A stretch of 10,451 bases of DNA, taken from a virus. Taxonomy: Duplodnaviria; Heunggongvirae; Uroviricota; Caudoviricetes. The stretch lies in the IMG/VR virus record IMGVR_UViG_2563366843_000006; one strand, 5' to 3'. Both the position numbers and the translations under genes were made by a program. The notes below the pieces were generated by a model. It made no database searches. It had not been told where the DNA came from and saw nothing but the letters and a program-made list of their open reading frames with translations. The first letter of the stretch is position 1. Every line of letters begins with the position of its first letter. Of this stretch, positions 665-9,840 are shown piece by piece.

Positions 665-3040
665 ATGGCAGCAGTAAAAATCTCAGGTGTGCTGAAAGAT
701 GGTGCGGGAAAACCAATACAGAACTGCACTATTCAACTGAAGGCAAAGCGTAACAGCACCACGGTACTGGTGAACACGGTGGCCTCTGAAAATCCGGATG
801 AAGCCGGGCGTTACAGCATGGATGTTGAGTATGGCCAGTACAGCGTCATCCTGCTGGTTGAAGGTTTTCCGCCTTCACATGCCGGGACCATTACCGTCTA
901 TGAAGGCTCCAGACCAGGTACGCTGAATGATTTTCTCGGTGCCATGACGGAAGAGGATGTCATGCCGGAGGCATTGCGTCGTTTTGAGGCAATGGTGGAA
1001 GAAGTGGCACGCAACGCCGAAGCCGCCTCTCAGAGCGCAGCGGCGGCAAAGAAATCCGAAACTGCAGCGGCATCATCGAAGAACGCGGCGAAAACCTCAG
1101 AAACGAATGCAGCTAACAGCGCACAGGCGGCAGCGACCTCACAGACTGCATCGGCAAACTCCGCGACAGCAGCCAAAAAATCAGAAACCAATGCGAAAAA
1201 CAGCGAGACAGCCGCAAAGACGAGCGAAACCAACGCAAAGTCCAGCCAGACGGCAGCGAAAACCAGCGAAACGAATGCCAAAGCCAGTGAAACTGCGGCG
1301 AAAAACAGCCAGGATGCAGCGGCCCAAAGCGAGAGTGCCGCAGCTGGTTCTGCGACTTCAGCAGCTGGATCAGCAACTGCTGCGGCTAACAGCCAGAAAG
1401 CTGCGAAGACGAGTGAAACCAACGCAAAGTCCAGCCAGACGGCAGCGAAAACCAGCGAAACGAATGCCAAAGCCAGTGAAACTGCGGCGAAAAGCAGTCA
1501 GGATGCAGCAGCCGAAAGCGAGAGTGCTGCAGCTGGCTCTGCAAGCGCGGCGGCTGCTTCTGCCACTGCATCAGCCAACAGTCAAAAAGCTGCAAAAACC
1601 AGTGAAACCAACGCAAAGGCGAGCGAGACTGCGGCGGCTAACTCGGCGAAAGCATCCGCTGCAAGCCAGACGGCTGCAAAAGCAAGTGAAGACGCAGCCA
1701 GAGAGTATGCAAGCCAGGCTGCGGAGCCGTATAAACAAGTATTGCAGCCGCTTCCCGATGTGTGGATACCGTTTAACGATTCACTGGATATGATTACGGG
1801 CTTTTCGCCGTCATATAAAAAGATTGTTATTGGTGATGATGAAATAACGATGCCTGGCGATAAGGTTGTAAAGTTTAAACGCGCATCAAAAGCAACTTAC
1901 ATTAATAAATCTGGTGTGCTGACAGAGGCTGCCATTGACGAGCCACGGTTTGAACGTGATGGCCTGCTTATTGAGGGGCAAAGAACAAACTACATGCTCA
2001 ATTCGGAAAACCCTGCCAGTTGGGGGCGATCGTCAAATATGGATGTGCCCGAAACAGGGACGGATAGTTTTGGTTTTACCTATGGAAAGTTTGTCTGCAA
2101 CGATTCTCTGATTGGGCAAACCTCAGCCATTAATATGGCATCAATTGCTGCAACAAAGTCAGTTGATGTCTCAGGCGATAATAAACACGTGACAACCTCA
2201 TGTCGTTTTAAAACAGAACTGCAGGTAAGGTTGCGTATCCGGTTTGATAAATATGACGGTAGCGCAACAACTTTTCTTGGTGATGCGTATATTGATACAC
2301 AAACGCTTGAAATTAATATGACAGGCGGTGCTGCCTCAAGGATTACTGCGAGAGTCAGAAAGGACGAAGCTACCGGATGGATTTTTGCAGAGGCAACAAT
2401 TCAGGCAATTGATGGGGAGCTAAAAATAGGCTCTCAGATACAGTATTCTCCTAAGCAGAGCGGGGCAACCGTATCTGGTGACTATATTTATCTGGCCACC
2501 CCACAAGTAGAAGATGGGCCTTGTGTATCATCTTTTATTATATCAGGAGCGACGGCGGCGACCCGCGCAAGCGATATAGTTACAGTTCCAATTAAGAATA
2601 ATCTTTATAATCTTCCTTTTACGGTTCTTTGTGAGGTACATAAGAACTGGTATAAAACGCCAAATGCAGCGCCACGTGTTTTTGATACCGGCGGTCATCA
2701 AACCGGAGCGGCTATTATTCTTGGCTTCGGTCGTTCAACAGATTACGACGGATTTCCTTATTGCGATATTGGAGGAGCTAACAGACGGGTAAACGAAAAC
2801 GCATCGCTTGAAAAAATGGTTATGGGGATGCGTGTAAAGTCAGAGCAGTCTACGTGCTCAGTAAGTAACGGGCATATATCCAGCGAAACAAAAACCACAT
2901 GGTCCTGTATTCAGAACACCGCAATTATCCGTATTGGAGGCCAGACTACAGCCGGGTTACGTCATTTATTTGGTCATGTCAGGAATTTCAGAATATGGCA
3001 CAAGGCATTGACTGATGCTCAGGTGGGGGAGTCAATCTAA
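665..3040 (+). CDS. stf: Side tail fibre protein (lambda Stf-like N-terminal anchor, Ala/Ser/Thr-rich repetitive shaft, divergent C-terminal receptor-binding region)
   Basis: Long ORF (track 659-3040 from GTG). ATG at 665 is preferred because GGAG at 656-659 sits 5 nt upstream. N-terminus MAAVKISGVLKDGAGKPIQNCTIQLKAKRNSTTVLVNT... matches my recollection of lambda Stf. Central KTSETNAK-type repeats. The C-terminal ~430 aa is more AT-rich and ends ...LRHLFGHVRNFRIWHKALTDAQVGESI, reminiscent of a LamG/concanavalin-like lectin fold (tentative). Confidence 0.85.
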   Translation: MAAVKISGVLKDGAGKPIQNCTIQLKAKRNSTTVLVNTVASENPDEAGRYSMDVEYGQYSVILLVEGFPPSHAGTITVYEGSRPGTLNDFLGAMTEEDVMPEALRRFEAMVEEVARNAEAASQSAAAAKKSETAAASSKNAAKTSETNAANSAQAAATSQTASANSATAAKKSETNAKNSETAAKTSETNAKSSQTAAKTSETNAKASETAAKNSQDAAAQSESAAAGSATSAAGSATAAANSQKAAKTSETNAKSSQTAAKTSETNAKASETAAKSSQDAAAESESAAAGSASAAAASATASANSQKAAKTSETNAKASETAAANSAKASAASQTAAKASEDAAREYASQAAEPYKQVLQPLPDVWIPFNDSLDMITGFSPSYKKIVIGDDEITMPGDKVVKFKRASKATYINKSGVLTEAAIDEPRFERDGLLIEGQRTNYMLNSENPASWGRSSNMDVPETGTDSFGFTYGKFVCNDSLIGQTSAINMASIAATKSVDVSGDNKHVTTSCRFKTELQVRLRIRFDKYDGSATTFLGDAYIDTQTLEINMTGGAASRITARVRKDEATGWIFAEATIQAIDGELKIGSQIQYSPKQSGATVSGDYIYLATPQVEDGPCVSSFIISGATAATRASDIVTVPIKNNLYNLPFTVLCEVHKNWYKTPNAAPRVFDTGGHQTGAAIILGFGRSTDYDGFPYCDIGGANRRVNENASLEKMVMGMRVKSEQSTCSVSNGHISSETKTTWSCIQNTAIIRIGGQTTAGLRHLFGHVRNFRIWHKALTDAQVGESI
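1211..1623. repeat. In-frame tandem duplication inside stf, period 189 bp (63 aa), about 2.2 copies, embedded in a wider field of shorter KTSETNAK-coding repeats (about 1040-1690)
   Basis: Near-identical blocks: CAACGCAAAGTCCAGCCAGACGGCAGCGAAAACCAGCGAAACGAATGCCAAAGCCAGTGAAACTGCGGCGAAAA starts at 1231 and again at 1420; a third partial unit begins near 1610. Confidence 0.75.
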
Positions 3041-4701: not shown

Positions 4702-4850
4702 ACATAAAAAGCCGCAGCAACTTGTCATGGCAGAATACTGCGGCTGGCTGGTGAACTTCCGATAGTGCGAGTATTGAATGATTTCCAGCCATTACTGATT
4801 TTACGCATTTTTTGCATGAGAGGATTTGCACCTGCTCTCACAGACCATCT

Positions 4851-4927
4851 ATGACTGTACGCCACTATCTCTAGGGCTGCTATGTGCTGTGAGTTCAACC
4901 AATGTACGAACAGCCAGAAGCGGACAA
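4851..4927. repeat. Left copy of an imperfect inverted repeat bracketing the AT-rich cargo operon (core TATGTGCTGTGAGTTCAA at 4881-4898)
   Basis: Reverse complement of 8344-8410 aligns by hand with an 18/18 identical core plus flanks of about 21/29 and partial matches beyond, with one ~9-nt indel. Confidence 0.65.
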
Positions 4928-5037
4928 ATGATGACAAACTATATGCTCATCAACGTAGAGTAAGCCACTCAGTTGATGATGGGAGTGGGTTGCCTGCTGC
5001 CATCACTATTGTCGATTCTTAAGTGTACGCACTCTAA

Positions 5038-5068
5038 TTTACAGTTGCTTCATAGCGTAAAATATGAT
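5038..5068 (+). promoter_or_regulatory. Candidate sigma70-like promoter for the cargo operon (TTTACA ... TATGAT); weak, with non-optimal 19-nt spacer
   Basis: -35-like TTTACA at 5038-5043 and -10-like TATGAT at 5063-5068, about 90 nt upstream of the first ATG. Judged by eye only. Confidence 0.2.
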
Positions 5069-5157
5069 TTAAGATCAAAGACGTTTACATCTCGTACCTC
5101 ACAAGCAGCTTTTACTTGCTGAGGGCGGTAGCGTTTCTATTATTATCTCAAATCAAT

Positions 5158-6150
5158 ATGGATAATGTAATGAGTGAAACTAAACACATATCTGAAATGG
5201 CAGAAAGGGTGGCAAATAATTTATTCTCAATTTTTAAATGGAAAAGGAAGATTGCTTCCGATTTCAGTTGGGATTGTGTAAGCCCTGATGAACATGGAGG
5301 AAAAAAAGATCATCCGTCTGATTGCGTTTTTTATTACAGAGATCCCTATGATAATGAAGTTAAATATATTAATACTGATCTTAAGAGTTATGCGAAAGGC
5401 TCAATAACAAAAGAGCAAATTAATAAAGCAATCAGTTCTCTTTCCTATGCAACGAATTGCGCACCATATAATGATAATTGGAAAAGGTTATTTAAACCAG
5501 AAGGGAATTGGTCTGTAATAGGTATGCTGTTTGTTTATAATCATTGCGGTGAATATAATGGGGACTTTAATGAAATAGTTAAGGCGGTTGAAAATGATGT
5601 CAATCATTTGGATAATGAAAAAATGATATATATTTTCTCCCCAGATAGAATTAGAATATTAAATAGTATTGCTAATGATATCAATGTAATGATAGGGAAA
5701 GAAGAATTACCGTCTAAAAATCATTTTAGCTTCTTTCATCCCAATGAGATATTAACAAAAAATCATTTCAACCATGATTATTCTGAGCCAGCAACTATTA
5801 ATGTTCTTTCTTCACCTTGGATTATAATTAAGCATGCAGATTGTGAGAATGAAAAGGCAGGCTATTTAATATATTATACTAAAGATGGTTCAGAAGATGA
5901 CGAATTTGACTATTTTATTGATGCTCTAAGCTATTACCAAATAATCAATAATACAAGTAATGTCAGAATCAAATTAACAATAAAAAATGAATTTGCAGCA
6001 AGTAATCTTTTAAACTCAATTAGTAAATACTATCAGTCTCTCGGTCGTACCGAAAAAGAATCAATGCAAATCGCCAATACAATGGTAAAAGGTACTATTG
6101 ATTTGGTTACACCACAGTTTTCTGCTAATGAAATTGGAGTTTTACCATGA
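5158..6150 (+). CDS. Hypothetical protein A of AT-rich three-gene operon (about 331 aa); N-terminal region has a tentative PD-(D/E)xK nuclease-like motif arrangement
   Basis: Long ORF in a roughly 30% G+C region; track ORF 5116-6150 begins at TTG. First ATG is at 5158, alternative at 5170; neither has a strong SD. Stop TGA overlaps the start of gene B (ATGA at 6147-6150). Asn/Lys/Ile/Tyr-rich, no TM or signal peptide. Confidence 0.75.
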   Translation: MDNVMSETKHISEMAERVANNLFSIFKWKRKIASDFSWDCVSPDEHGGKKDHPSDCVFYYRDPYDNEVKYINTDLKSYAKGSITKEQINKAISSLSYATNCAPYNDNWKRLFKPEGNWSVIGMLFVYNHCGEYNGDFNEIVKAVENDVNHLDNEKMIYIFSPDRIRILNSIANDINVMIGKEELPSKNHFSFFHPNEILTKNHFNHDYSEPATINVLSSPWIIIKHADCENEKAGYLIYYTKDGSEDDEFDYFIDALSYYQIINNTSNVRIKLTIKNEFAASNLLNSISKYYQSLGRTEKESMQIANTMVKGTIDLVTPQFSANEIGVLP

Positions 6151-7253
6151 GTAATCCTGAGAAAAAATTTGGTCATAGTATTTACTACATGAACGATCAA
6201 AATATTAGGGATGGTTTACTAGCGCAGAAAGTTAAAGCATCACATTTGATAAAAATTTTAAAAGATCGCAACATTTTAGTATCACCTCTATCTTCAAAAG
6301 AAGAACTGATAAACATGTTAAAGTTTATCAGATTCGATTATTATGATTATGTTTATTTATCATCAATTCTTGCAAATCAAGATAAAAAAGAAAGTAAGTC
6401 AAGTATTGATATAGATAAGAAAGTCACTGCTAAGCAAATATTAAGTACGTTTGAGTCGATTAAAGGAGTGTTAGAAGCTCGTCAAATTACAGCCGAGGTT
6501 TCTAAACAAAACAGTAAAAAAATAACTATCAACTTTGAGTATGTTGAGTTTGATCATTCGAAACCACCTATGCGTCAAAAATCATTCCGTAAAGGGGTAG
6601 TTGAATGTGATATAACTGCTACAGGTGCGATGCTTAATTATCCAGCAAATAAAGTTGGGGCAATAATAAAAGACCATTTAATCACACAACTTTCCAAAAA
6701 GTTAGATACTGAATTGAAGCCAATCGAATTTGATTTTGAGAACTCCAGTGTTGCAACTAGAAATAATTTCTTCCTTAGTGTAATCAATAATGTTGAAAAG
6801 TATGAAGTATACGATGTTGTCACTGTGGCAGTTAAGAAGATAGAAGAGAAAAAAGGAAAGGAAAGCTCCTCGTCAGCGGATTCAGACAATGATTCGGTAG
6901 GGGAAGCATTTACTGGAGAAGTTAGAAACGCCATTCTACGCGGAAATCAGATTTTAACTTCAAAAGTATACAGTGGGTTAAATACAGGGAATTATTATAT
7001 TTATAAAATTACTTGGAAGATTAGAGAAATAATTCCGGGCTTGGGATCTGAACAATCTGATTGTTATACGGTTGAGATTGAGTTTAGTGATAAAGATAAG
7101 GCTAAAGGACTAAAGTATTGTGTTAAAACTGTTCAGCGATTCTCCTCAAAAAATAGACTGAATGTTACAACTGAAAATCCTTTAAAAAATGAGCAAGAAA
7201 AATTAGGAAAGCTCATTTATAAAACAGCCCTAGATGTCTATTCTAAAATATAA
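6147..7253 (+). CDS. Hypothetical protein B of AT-rich three-gene operon (368 aa); two regions separated by a Ser/Asp-rich acidic linker
   Basis: ATG at 6147 with GGAG SD at 6136-6139 (7-nt spacing), overlapping the gene A stop. No recognisable catalytic signature by eye; linker KKGKESSSSADSDNDSVGEAF at about 6850-6910. Confidence 0.8.
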   Translation: MSNPEKKFGHSIYYMNDQNIRDGLLAQKVKASHLIKILKDRNILVSPLSSKEELINMLKFIRFDYYDYVYLSSILANQDKKESKSSIDIDKKVTAKQILSTFESIKGVLEARQITAEVSKQNSKKITINFEYVEFDHSKPPMRQKSFRKGVVECDITATGAMLNYPANKVGAIIKDHLITQLSKKLDTELKPIEFDFENSSVATRNNFFLSVINNVEKYEVYDVVTVAVKKIEEKKGKESSSSADSDNDSVGEAFTGEVRNAILRGNQILTSKVYSGLNTGNYYIYKITWKIREIIPGLGSEQSDCYTVEIEFSDKDKAKGLKYCVKTVQRFSSKNRLNVTTENPLKNEQEKLGKLIYKTALDVYSKI

Positions 7254-7268
7254 ATGGGGGATGGCATT

Positions 7269-7946
7269 ATGGAAAAAAGAATCGTTTTTTATGATTTTGA
7301 AACTCCTTTTAATCAGGAGCAAATCAGCAAAAGATTGATTGAAAACCAATTTACAAAAGATGCGATCTCAGGTTTTAGTTTACAGAAAAATAATAGTACT
7401 GGGATTTACTTCCGACATATTAAAAAGATTATTAACATTGACGTTGTGTTAACACCTTTTGGTGAAGAATATGAAAATACCACAATCGCCTACGCTACCA
7501 ATGAGGTGAAAATAACTGATAAGTCTCTTCGTATAATTAACCCATCTAGAACACTTGCTCCCTTTCGAACAGATTTGGTGAAGTCTCTAGACTTTCAGTG
7601 CACTATAAGTAATAAGAATATAGAATTAAGTCCACTATTGTTATCTTTGAGAGAAAGGAATGTTAATATCAACTTGACTGATATTGAACTTACTACATAT
7701 GACCTCTTTAAGGATTCTCGAGTTAAAATGGTCATTTCTTCTAATAGTGATTTAATTGGCAAAGCAGAATCCTATTTAAATAATGTTAAGTCCAACATCA
7801 CAAAAATAGGTTTTTCTTTATTGTTTAATGGTGATTATTATTTTGTTGAAATTGGTTGTAAAGGTTCATTGAAAATATCAGGGGATTTAATAGAGGATAA
7901 TTTGGAATATTATATTATTAATGAAATTCTATCTTTAGATGCTTAA
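7269..7946 (+). CDS. Hypothetical protein C of AT-rich three-gene operon (225 aa from ATG 7269; 230 aa if ATG 7254 is used)
   Basis: ORF directly abutting the gene B stop (TAA 7251-7253). GGGGGA at 7256-7261 is 7 nt upstream of ATG 7269, favouring that start. AT-rich codon usage like A and B; followed by a terminator at 8027-8057. Confidence 0.75.
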   Translation: MEKRIVFYDFETPFNQEQISKRLIENQFTKDAISGFSLQKNNSTGIYFRHIKKIINIDVVLTPFGEEYENTTIAYATNEVKITDKSLRIINPSRTLAPFRTDLVKSLDFQCTISNKNIELSPLLLSLRERNVNINLTDIELTTYDLFKDSRVKMVISSNSDLIGKAESYLNNVKSNITKIGFSLLFNGDYYFVEIGCKGSLKISGDLIEDNLEYYIINEILSLDA

Positions 7947-8026
7947 CCGCCTTGCTGTTGTGGGGGAAGTTTGAAAGTTAATATTTATTAACAAACATAT
8001 TGTTTTTATACCGTTTTTTAAAAAAA

Positions 8027-8057
8027 AGAGTCGAGACTTAAAGCGGCTCTTTTTTTA
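8027..8057 (+). terminator. Intrinsic terminator closing the three-gene operon (possibly bidirectional)
   Basis: Stem AGAGTCG (8027-8033) / CGGCTCT (8044-8050) including one G-U pair, 10-nt loop, then TTTTTTT (8051-8057); A-tract immediately upstream. Confidence 0.5.
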
Positions 8058-8343
8058 TTAGTTGTTGGGTTGAATTGAATTTTAAAATAAGTTCCTGCAA
8101 TAAGAACGAACCAAGTAAACGATCTGGAAATTATTAATCTTTTCCTCCCGATGAAGATTCTTCTGAGTGCGGATCAAAGTAACTTAACGTTACTTTCCTC
8201 ACCAACACAAAGTAAAAAGGTATTTTTTAAATGTAAAATAGTCAAATCCGACGAAAAGTATAAATTAATATACTTGATTTGTTCCTGTTATTTCCTGGCC
8301 AACCTGCAACAATTGGAAGTGGCAACTAAAATTTGCTATGTAT

Positions 8344-8410
8344 ATGTTCGCTTGTCGCTGTGCGTCCATCGATTGAACTCACAGCACATAACAGACATTC
8401 ACTACAGTTA
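8344..8410. repeat. Right copy of the imperfect inverted repeat bracketing the cargo operon (core TTGAACTCACAGCACATA at 8373-8390, the reverse complement of 4881-4898)
   Basis: See left copy. The two copies face each other across about 3.4 kb containing only the three AT-rich genes and their terminator. Confidence 0.65.
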
Positions 8411-8762
8411 TGGTAGAAGGTATGCATGCTGGGTGGGGAAAGTATGAAGGAAAAGAAGACTGCTGCGCCGTTTGTCGTCACATTTATCTTCATTGGCTAT
8501 GCAAGTCGTAATACAAGGTGGGACAAAACAGAGACACATAAGGTCTCACAAAGGTCTGCAAGGCCTCACATGTATTGAGATGTTAATAAAATGTAGACTT
8601 GTAATTTGGATATAAATGGTAGAGAAAACCTTTCCCCAAAATAAAAACGAACGTCAATGAAATCAAACGGTTGAATAAAGTTGATTTTGGCTAATAAAAA
8701 AACAATAAAATAATTTTTATCATTAAATATCAATGACTTGAACTTAATGTTTTTATATACTG

Positions 8763-8924
8763 CTGCGCCATATGGGCTGGACTGAAGCCGCAGACTTGAT
8801 TGTTAAAGGTATGGAAGGCGCAATCAATGCGAAGACCGTAACCTATGATTTCGAACGTCTGATGGAAGGTGCTAAACTGCTGAAATGCAGCGAGTTTGGT
8901 GATGCGATCATCAAGAACATGTAA
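8763..8924 (+). pseudogene. icd: Orphan 3' fragment of isocitrate dehydrogenase gene (last ~54 codons, icdC-like), marking the prophage/host junction (attR side)
   Basis: In-frame translation [53 protein letters not shown] matches my recollection of the E. coli Icd C-terminus. No icd sequence upstream, where unrelated AT-rich DNA begins at about 8760. Followed by a strong terminator. Confidence 0.85.
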
Positions 8925-8947
8925 TTACTACATGTGTTAAATATTGT

Positions 8948-8979
8948 AACGGGCGTATAACACGCCCGTTGTTTTATTT
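8948..8979 (+). terminator. icd intrinsic terminator (could also serve convergent iraM)
   Basis: Perfect 9-bp stem AACGGGCGT (8948-8956) / ACGCCCGTT (8962-8970), loop ATAAC, then GTTTTATTT. Confidence 0.75.
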
Positions 8980-9788: not shown

Positions 9789-9840
9789 ACATGTGCGTTA
9801 AGTATTGAAACGGACGTATGGCACGCCCGTTGTTTTTATA
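9789..9840 (+). repeat. Degenerate second copy of the icd 3'-flank/terminator segment (direct repeat of 8930-8980)
   Basis: ACATGTG(C)GTTAAGTATTGAAACGGACGTATGGCACGCCCGTTGTTTTT aligns with ACATGTGTTAAATATTGTAACGGGCGTATAACACGCCCGTTGTTTTA at roughly 85% identity; the hairpin carries one stem mismatch (A9814). Confidence 0.6.

What the first reader, a model, noticed from the sequence alone, without database searches (positions are those of the whole stretch)
4851..8410. Cargo operon is bracketed by ~70-80-bp imperfect inverted repeats with an 18-bp perfect core
Seen: 4881-4898 (TATGTGCTGTGAGTTCAA) is the exact reverse complement of 8373-8390. Flanks extend the match (about 21/29 on one side, partial on the other with a ~9-nt indel), giving facing repeats at about 4851-4927 and 8344-8410. 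They enclose only the three AT-rich genes and their terminator. Both copies keep a short CTGT(G)...(C)ACAG stem around the core. The frame-track ORFs overlapping them (4725-4937 minus, 8151-8447 plus) share only the peptide LNSQHI encoded by the core, so conservation is at nucleotide level, not protein level. Inference: terminal inverted repeats of a mobilisable cassette (no transposase visible, so possibly non-autonomous or recombination-delivered), or paired regulatory or RNA elements.
Basis: seen in the sequence. Interest (0 to 1): 0.7.

Follow-up and report, generated by a model that had tools for sequence, protein, structure and literature searches.

The report
IS30 end relics in cassette sites
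The inverted repeats around this prophage's three-gene anti-phage operon are real; each is half of a 24-bp palindromic site that bounds accessory-gene cassettes in lambda-like and P2-like phages, split by a leftover end of an IS30-family insertion sequence that specifically targets those sites.

Summary
The repeat is confirmed but shorter than described. There is an 18-nt exact core (4881-4898 / 8373-8390). The arms are 53 nt and 83% complementary (4877-4929 / 8342-8394), not 70-80 nt.

Each arm is a composite of two things. The first is a 24-bp palindromic junction site, (G/T)TCCGCT-N4-GC-N4-AGCGGA(C). Such sites bound the variable cargo slot of lambdoid prophages, including phage lambda itself (around ea31-ea59). 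They also bound P2's fun(Z) cassette and cassettes in P2-like hotspots. The second is a solo 25-nt terminal inverted repeat of an ISCfr4-like IS30-family element, sitting at the site's central GC.

Five full-length copies of that IS (four distinct target sites) all lie at the central GC of such a site, with a 2-bp GC duplication.

The cargo is an Rst_3HP-type defence operon. But there is no transposase in the window. No full-length IS copy was listed in the four carrier genomes. The unit sits in one place only, and the structure does not recur elsewhere.

The most likely reading is a decayed IS30-type insertion. The general finding is that palindromic sites bound cassettes in two phage families. 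How cassettes move between those sites is not known.

The parts
4738..4887 (.). Left conserved flank of the cargo slot. It ends at the central GC of the left junction site.
   Evidence: 80-88% identical to lambda 24190-24339 and to about 1900 E. coli genomes. Homology stops at 4887 in nearly all of them.
4875..4887 (.). Outer half of the left junction site: half-site GGCTGCT (4875-4881), spacer ATGT (4882-4885), central GC (4886-4887).
   Evidence: Aligned with 17 slots and with linker sites.
4888..4914 (+). Solo IS30-family terminal inverted repeat, TGTGAGTTCAACCAATGTACGAACA (4888-4912), tip facing the left flank. It is followed by GC (4913-4914), which is either a duplicated target dinucleotide or IR positions 26-27.
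   Evidence: 19/25 identical to IRRs and 15-18/25 to IRLs of full ISCfr4-like copies; 21/25 to the right arm.
4915..4925 (.). Inner (cassette-side) half of the left junction site: spacer CAGA (4915-4918), half-site AGCGGAC (4919-4925).
   Evidence: Same motif at the left end of every cassette compared. Aligns to the L031 site at 6991.
4915..5115 (+). Left end region of the cassette, non-coding. About 70% identical to the left end of a P2-hotspot cassette that carries different genes.
   Evidence: The 3HP operon homology in L159 only starts at 5014.
5170..6150 (+). hp1, first gene of the Rst_3HP-type defence operon. A longer ORF from a TTG at 5116 is possible.
   Evidence: PADLOC Hp1 (PDLC03004), E 9.5e-61. 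The same CDS is annotated in RefSeq strain TCM3e1.
6147..7253 (+). hp2.
   Evidence: PADLOC Hp2 (PDLC03005), E 1.2e-27.
7254..7946 (+). hp3. RefSeq starts it 15 nt further in.
   Evidence: PADLOC Hp3 (PDLC03006), E 4.1e-13.
8028..8058 (+). Terminator-like hairpin, AGAGTCG-N10-CGGCTCT, followed by a run of seven T.
   Evidence: Read from the sequence. The terminator scan missed it because its loop limit is 8 nt.
8256..8356 (+). Right end region of the cassette. About 79% identical to the right end of the L031 P2-hotspot cassette.
8346..8356 (.). Inner half of the right junction site: half-site GTTCGCT (8346-8352), spacer TGTC (8353-8356).
   Evidence: Aligns with the L031 site at 8877 and with the right ends of other cassettes.
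8357..8383 (-). GC (8357-8358) followed by a solo IS30-family IRR (8359-8383; on the minus strand TGTGAGTTCAATCGATGGACGCACA), tip facing the right flank.
   Evidence: 21-22/25 identical to IRRs of full copies and to the L030 remnant.
8384..8396 (.). Outer half of the right junction site: GC (8384-8385), spacer ACAT (8386-8389), half-site AACAGAC (8390-8396).
   Evidence: It corresponds to the outer half of lambda's right site, which spans 27323-27344.
8384..8510 (.). Right conserved flank of the slot. Conserved with lambda to 8510, and with other icd-integrated prophages through the icd fragment.
   Evidence: Present in about 2000 E. coli genomes, with homology starting at 8384.

Best explanation
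The window is the right end of a lambdoid prophage integrated at icd. Between the tail-fibre genes and attR lies a cargo slot whose two boundaries are 24-bp near-palindromic junction sites. Each site has a half-site (G/T)TCCGCT, a 10-bp spacer with GC at its centre, and a half-site AGCGGA(C). The phage side contributes one half of each site and the cassette contributes the other. The two sites therefore face each other as a ~24-bp inverted repeat in every phage that has the slot.

These sites are the specific insertion target of an ISCfr4-like IS30-family insertion sequence, which enters at the central GC and duplicates it. In this prophage both sites were hit. All that remains of the IS at each site is its outermost 25-nt terminal repeat, tip outwards. 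That roughly doubles the length of the inverted repeat. It also creates the 18-nt perfect core, which is 7 nt of site (TATGTGC) plus the 11-nt IS tip (TGTGAGTTCAA).

Shown: the composite anatomy, the generic sites, the IS target specificity, and the identity of the cargo as an Rst_3HP-type defence operon.

Inferred: that the solo ends are relics of full IS copies reduced by deletion, either as a decayed composite or cointegrate-like structure or as two separate insertions. Also inferred: that the unit is now immobile.
For: The slot boundaries are the same, to the nucleotide, in an ST131 prophage and in lambda itself, at 4887|4888 and 8383|8384 (lambda 24339).

Seventeen slots with at least 10 unrelated cargos (1.2-6.2 kb) share CTGCTATGTGC|CAGGAGCGGAC on the left and its inverted counterpart on the right. 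Multi-module cargos contain a 70-nt linker made of two full sites 42 bp apart.

P2's fun(Z) cassette is flanked by the same sites at 15336 and 17433. Five sites separate genes in a P2-like hotspot. In 1.6 Mb of fetched loci there are 333 sites at up to 2 mismatches, against 3 in shuffles, and they are strongly intergenic.

The full IS in L029 sits at a right junction site with a GC duplication. Four further full copies, representing three more distinct target sites and including one on a plasmid, also sit at the central GC of a site. The transposase has HTH_38 and rve domains. Truncated IS ends occur at a right site (L030, about 47 nt) and at a left site (L035, about 62 nt).

The window's arms match the IS ends at 19-22 of 25 positions. 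The cargo matches PADLOC Hp1/Hp2/Hp3. Rst_3HP is reported as mostly prophage-borne.
Against: No intermediate with full IS copies at both sites of one cassette was found.

Both remnants end exactly at IR position 25 and are followed by GC. Two independent random deletions would not be expected to do that. It needs either microhomology (TGTG/CACA at the IR tip and at its inner end) or a transposase-linked process, and neither was shown.

Both arms look IRR-like and are closer to each other (21/25) than to any full copy. One arm may therefore have been copied from the other, or the IS copies may have been inverted rather than direct.

The GC after each 25-mer could be IR positions 26-27 rather than a target duplication, because genuine IRLs also carry GC there.
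Confidence: 0.72

Rival explanations
1. The unit 4888-8383 is a working non-autonomous transposon, a mobile insertion cassette with IS30-family ends and a defence operon as passenger. It entered an empty palindromic slot site (…ATGT-GC-ACAT…) in one step, and it can be moved in trans by an ISCfr4-like transposase.
For: Two complete-length IS30-family ends face outwards and are flanked by GC on both sides. The surrounding outer half-sites would together form a good 24-bp palindromic target. IS30 is reported to excise any segment delimited by its IRL and IRR (PMC9333248).
Against: The unit is found in 4 of 5426 genomes, all at the same site. There is no second structure of this kind in IMG/VR, and only chance-level hits in species genomes. 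None of the full-length IS rows listed belongs to a carrier genome. The left end is diverged (15-19/25). Cassette-side half-sites lie just inside both IRs, which is what insertion into two pre-existing junction sites predicts. No clean empty site was found: the 17 'empty' genomes carry a microhomology deletion.
Confidence: 0.15
2. The two arms pair at the RNA level, or fold locally, as processing, stability or termination signals for the cargo transcript.
For: Arms of 22-53 nt would form a duplex long enough for RNase III if both were on one transcript. The 70-nt double-site linker folds well (z -3.6).
Against: There is no Rfam match at the arms. The arms fold no better than shuffles. Across 246 distinct sites the two half-sites vary independently, with no compensatory changes (p = 0.82). 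Lambda's own junction sites do not fold. The left and right sites keep fixed mismatches to each other across phages.
Confidence: 0.04
3. The inverted repeats are crossover sites for a DNA invertase or other site-specific recombinase that flips or swaps the cassette. The IS ends are incidental.
For: The sites are 24-bp near-palindromes with a self-complementary central GC, which resembles serine-recombinase crossover sites. Phage-side and cassette-side bases next to the GC differ consistently: T-GC-C on the left and C-GC-T on the right (154 and 102 of 281 distinct sites). That is the pattern expected if exchange happened at the GC. Cargo orientation differs between phages (lambda minus strand, window plus strand).
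Against: There is no recombinase gene in the window, and none is common to lambda and P2. No cassette was found in both orientations among 19 compared. The sequence does not resemble the hix/gix sites that I recall from memory. This reading would explain the generic sites but not the IS-derived 25-mers that make up most of this window's repeat.
Confidence: 0.09

Closest known systems
IS30-family insertion sequences and their 'hot-spot' targeting (IS30; ISCfr4)
   Same: About 26-bp terminal inverted repeats starting TGT…; insertion at the central 2 bp of a roughly 24-bp near-palindromic target with a 2-bp duplication (PMC9333248; seen here); a transposase with HTH_38 and rve domains.
   Different: The window has no transposase and only solo ends. 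The target palindrome differs from IS30's lambda hot spot LHS (lambda 33244-33498). The targets here are cassette boundaries in phage hotspots.
Mobile insertion cassettes (MICs) and decayed IS30-family composite transposons (for example ISApl1-mcr-1; recalled from memory)
   Same: Passenger genes are bracketed by IS-type inverted repeats without a transposase.
   Different: There is no evidence of copies at other loci. Each IR is embedded in a pre-existing junction site. No carrier genome appears among the full-length IS rows listed.
Defence hotspots of P2-like phages and P4 satellites (Rousset et al. 2022, PMC9122126)
   Same: A variable anti-phage cargo at a fixed position between conserved phage genes; the Rst_3HP system; cassette end regions shared with a P2-like hotspot.
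   Different: That paper describes neither palindromic boundary sites nor a lambdoid slot, and it proposes cos-end recombination. Here the same 24-bp sites bound cassettes in P2, in lambda and in other contexts.
Integron cassette arrays (attC) and T4-type PeSL regulatory cassettes (recalled from memory)
   Same: Arrays of unrelated gene cassettes are separated by a short conserved imperfect palindrome.
   Different: There is no integrase and no attC-type architecture. There is no covariation that would point to a folded strand. The sites occur as inverted pairs or as 42-bp double sites.
[quoted passage not shown]
   Same: It deals with foreign DNA at fixed positions (Z/fun and tin-old regions) of P2-like phages. 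Judging by its title, it argues for site-specific recombination.
   Different: The paper is not held in the library. I could not check whether it describes these very sites. Any overlap rests on my memory only.

Membership tests
IS30-family insertion sequence (autonomous) | Transposase gene with HTH and DDE (rve) domains between the ends | tested here: not met
   No such ORF lies between 4888 and 8383. The three genes have no Pfam hit and match PADLOC Hp1-3.
IS30-family insertion sequence (autonomous) | Terminal inverted repeats of about 26 bp matching the family | tested here: met
   25-mers at 4888-4912 and 8359-8383 match the ends of full ISCfr4-like copies at 19-22 of 25 positions.
IS30-family insertion sequence (autonomous) | Insertion at the central 2 bp of a near-palindromic target with a 2-bp duplication | tested here: met
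   This holds for the full copies, which represent four distinct target sites. In the window, GC flanks each 25-mer and also the whole unit, but the GC is part of the symmetric target, so it does not decide the question here.
Non-autonomous IR-bounded cassette (MIC-like) | Two IS-type IRs in inverted orientation around passenger genes | tested here: met
Non-autonomous IR-bounded cassette (MIC-like) | Copies or insertion polymorphism at different loci | tested here: not met
   Four genomes, one locus. No hits in IMG/VR, and chance-level hits in species genomes.
Non-autonomous IR-bounded cassette (MIC-like) | A cognate transposase available in the same genome | tested here: not met
   Full-length IS copies occur in 42 of 5426 genomes. 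None of the four carrier accessions appears among the full-length rows listed.
Rst_3HP / PADLOC 3HP defence system | Three adjacent genes matching Hp1, Hp2 and Hp3 | tested here: met
   E-values 9.5e-61, 1.2e-27 and 4.1e-13, in order and on one strand. Anti-phage activity was not tested.
Integron gene cassette | IntI integrase, attI, and attC with paired R/L boxes folding as a hairpin | tested here: not met
   No integrase in the window. The site architecture is different, and the half-sites show no covariation.
Invertible DNA segment (Hin/Gin/Pin type) | An adjacent invertase gene, and both orientations found in nature | tested here: not met
   No invertase in the window. No reverse-strand matches among 19 cassettes.
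Known structured RNA (Rfam) | A match to a covariance model at the arms | tested here: not met
   Only three weak hits, all elsewhere in the window.

The most novel reading that the evidence does not exclude
The 24-bp palindromes are not just landing pads for one IS. They could be the exchange sites of a cassette system shared by lambda-like phages, P2-like phages, defence islands and some plasmids. In this reading, anti-phage cassettes each carry half-sites at both ends and are swapped at the central GC, either by an IS30-type transposase or by a recombinase not yet identified. The window's cassette, which still carries IS ends at both junctions, would then be a trapped intermediate of that process.
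Probability: 0.22. Interest if true: 0.85.

Novelty: new variant of a known kind. Interest (0 to 1): 0.6.

Why it matters
Defence hotspots in P2 phages and P4 satellites are well documented, but how cargo is exchanged so precisely is an open question. Rousset et al. could only speculate about cos ends.

Here the boundaries of such cargo are resolved to a defined 24-bp site. That site is shared by lambda's b region (around the Septu-like ea59/ea31 pair) and by P2's fun(Z) locus. It also occurs at four of the five full-length IS copies examined: three chromosomal loci next to defence-type genes and one plasmid. An IS30-family transposase demonstrably recognises it.

This gives a concrete sequence to test for recombination, a way to delimit cassettes computationally, and a candidate enzyme family. 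For the window itself the result is modest: the striking inverted repeat is mostly a pair of IS relics.

Tried and rejected
- **Rfam scan of the whole window:** nothing at the arms.
- **Folding of the arms and of lambda's sites:** not better than shuffles.
- **Covariation between half-sites:** none, so hairpin and RNA readings were dropped.
- **Search for an empty slot:** the 17 genomes with contiguous flanks turned out to carry a TATGT-microhomology deletion that also removes about 38 nt of the right flank. They are not clean empty sites.
- **Comparison with IS30's lambda hot spot LHS:** a different locus (lambda 33244-33498) with a different sequence.
- **Search for inverted isoforms of cassettes:** none.
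- **Pattern scans for other 'IS tip + GC + half-site' structures:** none in IMG/VR, and chance level in species genomes.
- **Literature:** no paper in the library describes inverted repeats or palindromes at these boundaries. Nilsson 2004, Olasz 1997 and the IS30 inverted-repeat paper sought by DOI are not held; Olasz 1998 was not looked up.
- **Ideas considered from memory and dropped for lack of sequence match:** a Tn7-end resemblance (GGGCGGACA), LexA or Int arm-type boxes, and Xer/dif.
Full report
**Observation**

The exact 18-nt inverted repeat is real. 4881-4898 (TATGTGCTGTGAGTTCAA) is the reverse complement of 8373-8390. It is longer than any inverted repeat found in 100 composition-preserving shuffles, where the maximum was 16 nt and 12-14 nt was usual.

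The arms extend to 53 nt without gaps, 44/53 identical (4877-4929 and 8342-8394). They do not reach 70-80 nt.

They bracket three AT-rich genes. The ORFs that overlap the arms share only the hexapeptide encoded by the core.

**Setting**

The window is the right end of a lambdoid prophage integrated at icd. In order it carries:
- Lom, a side tail fibre with a phage_tail_N domain, and a second fibre protein with a Peptidase_S74 domain;
- a 100-aa membrane ORF;
- the cargo;
- an icd fragment, then iraM and ycgX.

The RefSeq annotation of the near-identical strain TCM3e1 confirms this layout.

The three cargo proteins have no Pfam domain. They match PADLOC models Hp1, Hp2 and Hp3 (E 9.5e-61, 1.2e-27, 4.1e-13). 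This is the Rst_3HP system of DefenseFinder, reported as mostly prophage-borne.

**The cargo sits in a conserved slot**

BLAST of either side against 5426 complete E. coli genomes shows two short conserved flanks. They are 4738-4887 (about 1900 genomes) and 8384-8510 (about 2000 genomes). In nearly every hit the homology stops inside the 18-nt core, at 4887 and at 8384.

The same breakpoints are found in two other phages:
- An ST131 prophage at icd, where a 1.2-kb one-gene cargo fills the slot.
- Phage lambda itself, where the slot is lambda 24340-27332 and holds ea31 and ea59 on the other strand. The left flank ends at lambda 24339 (annotation).

Lambda Ea59 matches the Septu ATPase PtuA (E 8.8e-185), and Ea31 matches its partner family PDC-M01B.

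**The slot is bounded by a generic inverted repeat**

Seventeen slots from IMG/VR and E. coli were compared. They hold at least ten unrelated cargos of 1.2-6.2 kb. All have CTGCTATGTGC|CAGGAGCGGAC… on the left and the inverted CTGTTATGAGC|GAGGAGCGGAAGT… on the right.

Multi-module cargos contain a conserved 70-nt linker. It shows the full structure as two complete sites 42 bp apart.

Each site has these parts:
- a half-site (G/T)TCCGCT;
- a 10-bp spacer with GC at its centre;
- a half-site AGCGGA(C).

The phage backbone contributes one half, which is degenerate in the outer flanks (GGCTGCT on the left, AACAGAC on the right). The cassette contributes the other half.

**The same sites bound cassettes in P2-type phages**

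- P2's fun(Z) gene is flanked by sites at 15336 and 17433.
- In a P2-like prophage, five sites separate the hotspot genes between the tail-fibre assembly gene and FI.
About a third lie 60-90 nt after a P2-type G gene, others lie near lambda-type integrases, and many are in contexts I did not identify.

**Statistics of the site family**

In 1.6 Mb of fetched DNA there are 159, 232 and 333 sites at 0, 1 and 2 mismatches. Shuffles give 0, 1 and 3. Most of these loci were chosen because they contain one site, so only the additional sites count as independent.

Sites are intergenic. Only 12% lie inside long open frames, which cover 80% of the bases. Adjacent sites are either 42 bp apart or 0.5-5 kb apart.

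The bases next to the central GC fall into two classes: T-GC-C and C-GC-T (154 and 102 of 281 distinct sites). Where the sides can be assigned, the phage side carries T and the cassette side carries C.

The two half-sites vary independently, with no compensatory changes. This argues for recognition by a protein and against a conserved hairpin.

**What is special about this window**

Both of its sites carry a 27-nt insertion at exactly the central GC.
- Left: TATGT-GC-[TGTGAGTTCAACCAATGTACGAACA-GC]-CAGA-AGCGGAC.
- Right, read on the other strand: TATGT-GC-[TGTGAGTTCAATCGATGGACGCACA-GC]-GACA-AGCGAAC.

The 25-mer is the terminal inverted repeat of an IS30-family element that NCBI annotates as ISCfr4 family. 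The evidence is as follows:
- **A full copy at a slot junction.** In strain 3359 a full 1220-bp copy sits at the right junction site of the same slot, with a GC duplication.
- **Further full copies.** Four more full-length copies were examined: L155 and L156 (which share one target sequence), L157, and L158 on a plasmid. Each lies at the central GC of a site of this family, flanked by GC on both sides.
- **Four distinct targets in all.** These are GTCCGTT-CTTC-GC-TCAT-AACAGAC, GACCGCT-TCCG-GC-GAAA-AGCAGAA, GTCTGCT-CCTG-GC-ACTA-AGCGGAC and TTCCGCT-TTTG-GC-ACAA-AGCAGAC.
- **Transposase domains.** The transposase has the HTH_38 and rve domains.

This behaviour matches what is published for IS30: insertion into the central 2 bp of a near-palindromic hot spot with a 2-bp duplication (PMC9333248). 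The site differs from IS30's known lambda hot spot.

Truncated IS ends also occur at junction sites: about 47 nt of the right end in strain M18 and relatives, and about 62 nt of the left end in strain MFDS1022581.

So the 18-nt perfect core is 7 nt of site plus the 11-nt IS tip. The 53-nt arms are site half, then IS end, then site half.

**Is it a mobilisable cassette?**

Formally the unit 4888-8383 has two outward-facing IS30-type ends. IS30 is reported to act on any segment delimited by its ends. The evidence points against current or recurrent mobility:
- The unit is in four genomes, all at one locus.
- The structure 'IS tip, 12-17 nt, GC, N4, AGCGRA' is absent from IMG/VR. It gives only 11 hits in unrelated taxa among 100,044 species genomes, which I estimate to be about the chance number.
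- Full-length IS copies exist in only 42 genomes, and none of the four carriers appears among the full-length rows listed.
- The left end is diverged.
- Cassette-type half-sites lie immediately inside both IS ends. This is what insertion into two pre-existing junction sites predicts.

The operon itself (5014-7944) occurs at 87% identity in a distant P2-like contig, with neither sites nor IS tips. The cassette's non-coding end regions are shared with a P2-hotspot cassette that carries other genes. The repeats therefore belong to the slot and the cassette shell, not to the operon.

**What remains unexplained**

Both IS remnants are exactly 25 nt followed by GC. They resemble each other (21/25) more than any full copy, and both look IRR-like.

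Deletions between the TGTG/CACA microhomologies at the IR tip and at its inner end could do this. The M18 remnant is consistent with a CCGC-microhomology deletion (sequences; my reading). Copying of one arm onto the other, or a transposase-linked event, is not excluded.

I did not find an intermediate with full IS copies on both sides of a cassette.

How ordinary, IS-free cassettes come to carry half-sites at both ends is unknown. Neither lambda nor P2 encodes an obvious enzyme for it. IS30-type insertions are described as irreversible.

**Known or new**

IS30-family hot-spot targeting, IS remnants, the 3HP system and P2/P4 defence hotspots are all known.

I found no description of these palindromic boundary sites, of their presence in lambda, or of their being an IS30-family target in the searchable library. 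A 2004 paper on P2-like phages, whose title invokes site-specific recombination, could not be read and may overlap with this.

**Verdict**

- The 'mobilisable cassette' reading is partly right about the nature of the ends and probably wrong about present function.
- The more interesting result is the site family behind the repeat.

Noticed in passing
L003 5177-7641 (lambda 24509-26973): Lambda's own slot cargo looks like a Septu-type defence pair. Ea59 matches PADLOC PtuA at E 8.8e-185 and PDC-M01A at 8e-202. Ea31 matches PDC-M01B at 5.8e-113.
   Followed up: partly
L005, L007, L008, L009, L010, L012, L015, L021 (inside their cargos); NC_000913 1646969-1646999: A conserved 70-nt linker made of two junction sites exactly 42 bp apart divides slots into two sub-slots (34 such pairs). 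Its first site also matches the Qin cryptic prophage of K-12, and 1283 of 5426 genomes have a match.
   Followed up: partly
window 8426-8578 (+): A small ORF in the conserved right flank (MKEKKTAAPFVVTFIFIGYA…, hydrophobic) is preceded by a GGGGAA ribosome-binding-like sequence. The matching stretch is annotated 'putative membrane protein' in phage 21 and 'hypothetical protein' in several lambda-like records.
   Followed up: no
window 4736-4810 (+); L035 5920-6039: RefSeq annotates a tiny 'capsid protein' CDS or pseudogene in the conserved left flank of many prophages. The name looks spurious. Whether the flank encodes anything is unknown.
   Followed up: no
L032 6001-6198 (NZ_AP021893) and 16 other genomes: The whole slot and about 38 nt of the right flank are deleted between two TATGT repeats, so the left flank joins directly to …ATGCTGATTGGGG.
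   Followed up: yes
L002 4318-7767: In the ST131 prophage at icd, the sitABCD iron/manganese transporter is inserted between the 100-aa membrane ORF and the left flank. This is a second variable position just left of the slot, occupied by ea47 in lambda.
   Followed up: no
window 8933-8975 and 9794-9836: Two 43-nt copies (86% identical) of a GC-rich hairpin (AACGGGCGTATAACACGCCCGTT) followed by a T run lie on either side of iraM. The first gives a weak Rfam tpke11 hit (E 0.18, below threshold).
   Followed up: no
window 1080-1700: The side tail fibre gene contains nested tandem repeats with 21-nt and 189-nt periods, encoding an Ala/Ser/Thr/Lys-rich repeat (…KTSETNAKSSQTAA…).
   Followed up: no
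L155, L156, L157 (around the IS copies): The chromosomal full-length ISCfr4-like copies examined lie next to defence-type genes: an nSTAND1 NTPase, a restriction endonuclease, and AAA ATPase/TOPRIM genes. The plasmid copy (L158) lies next to dynamin-family, RdcB-family and patatin-like phospholipase genes. The sites therefore also occur outside prophage tail-fibre regions.
   Followed up: partly
(about 560 E. coli genomes, e.g. SE15, Ecol_448): A truncated copy of the same IS (positions 1-677 only, 91% identical) is far more common than full copies. I did not look at its context or at whether it also sits at a junction site.
   Followed up: no
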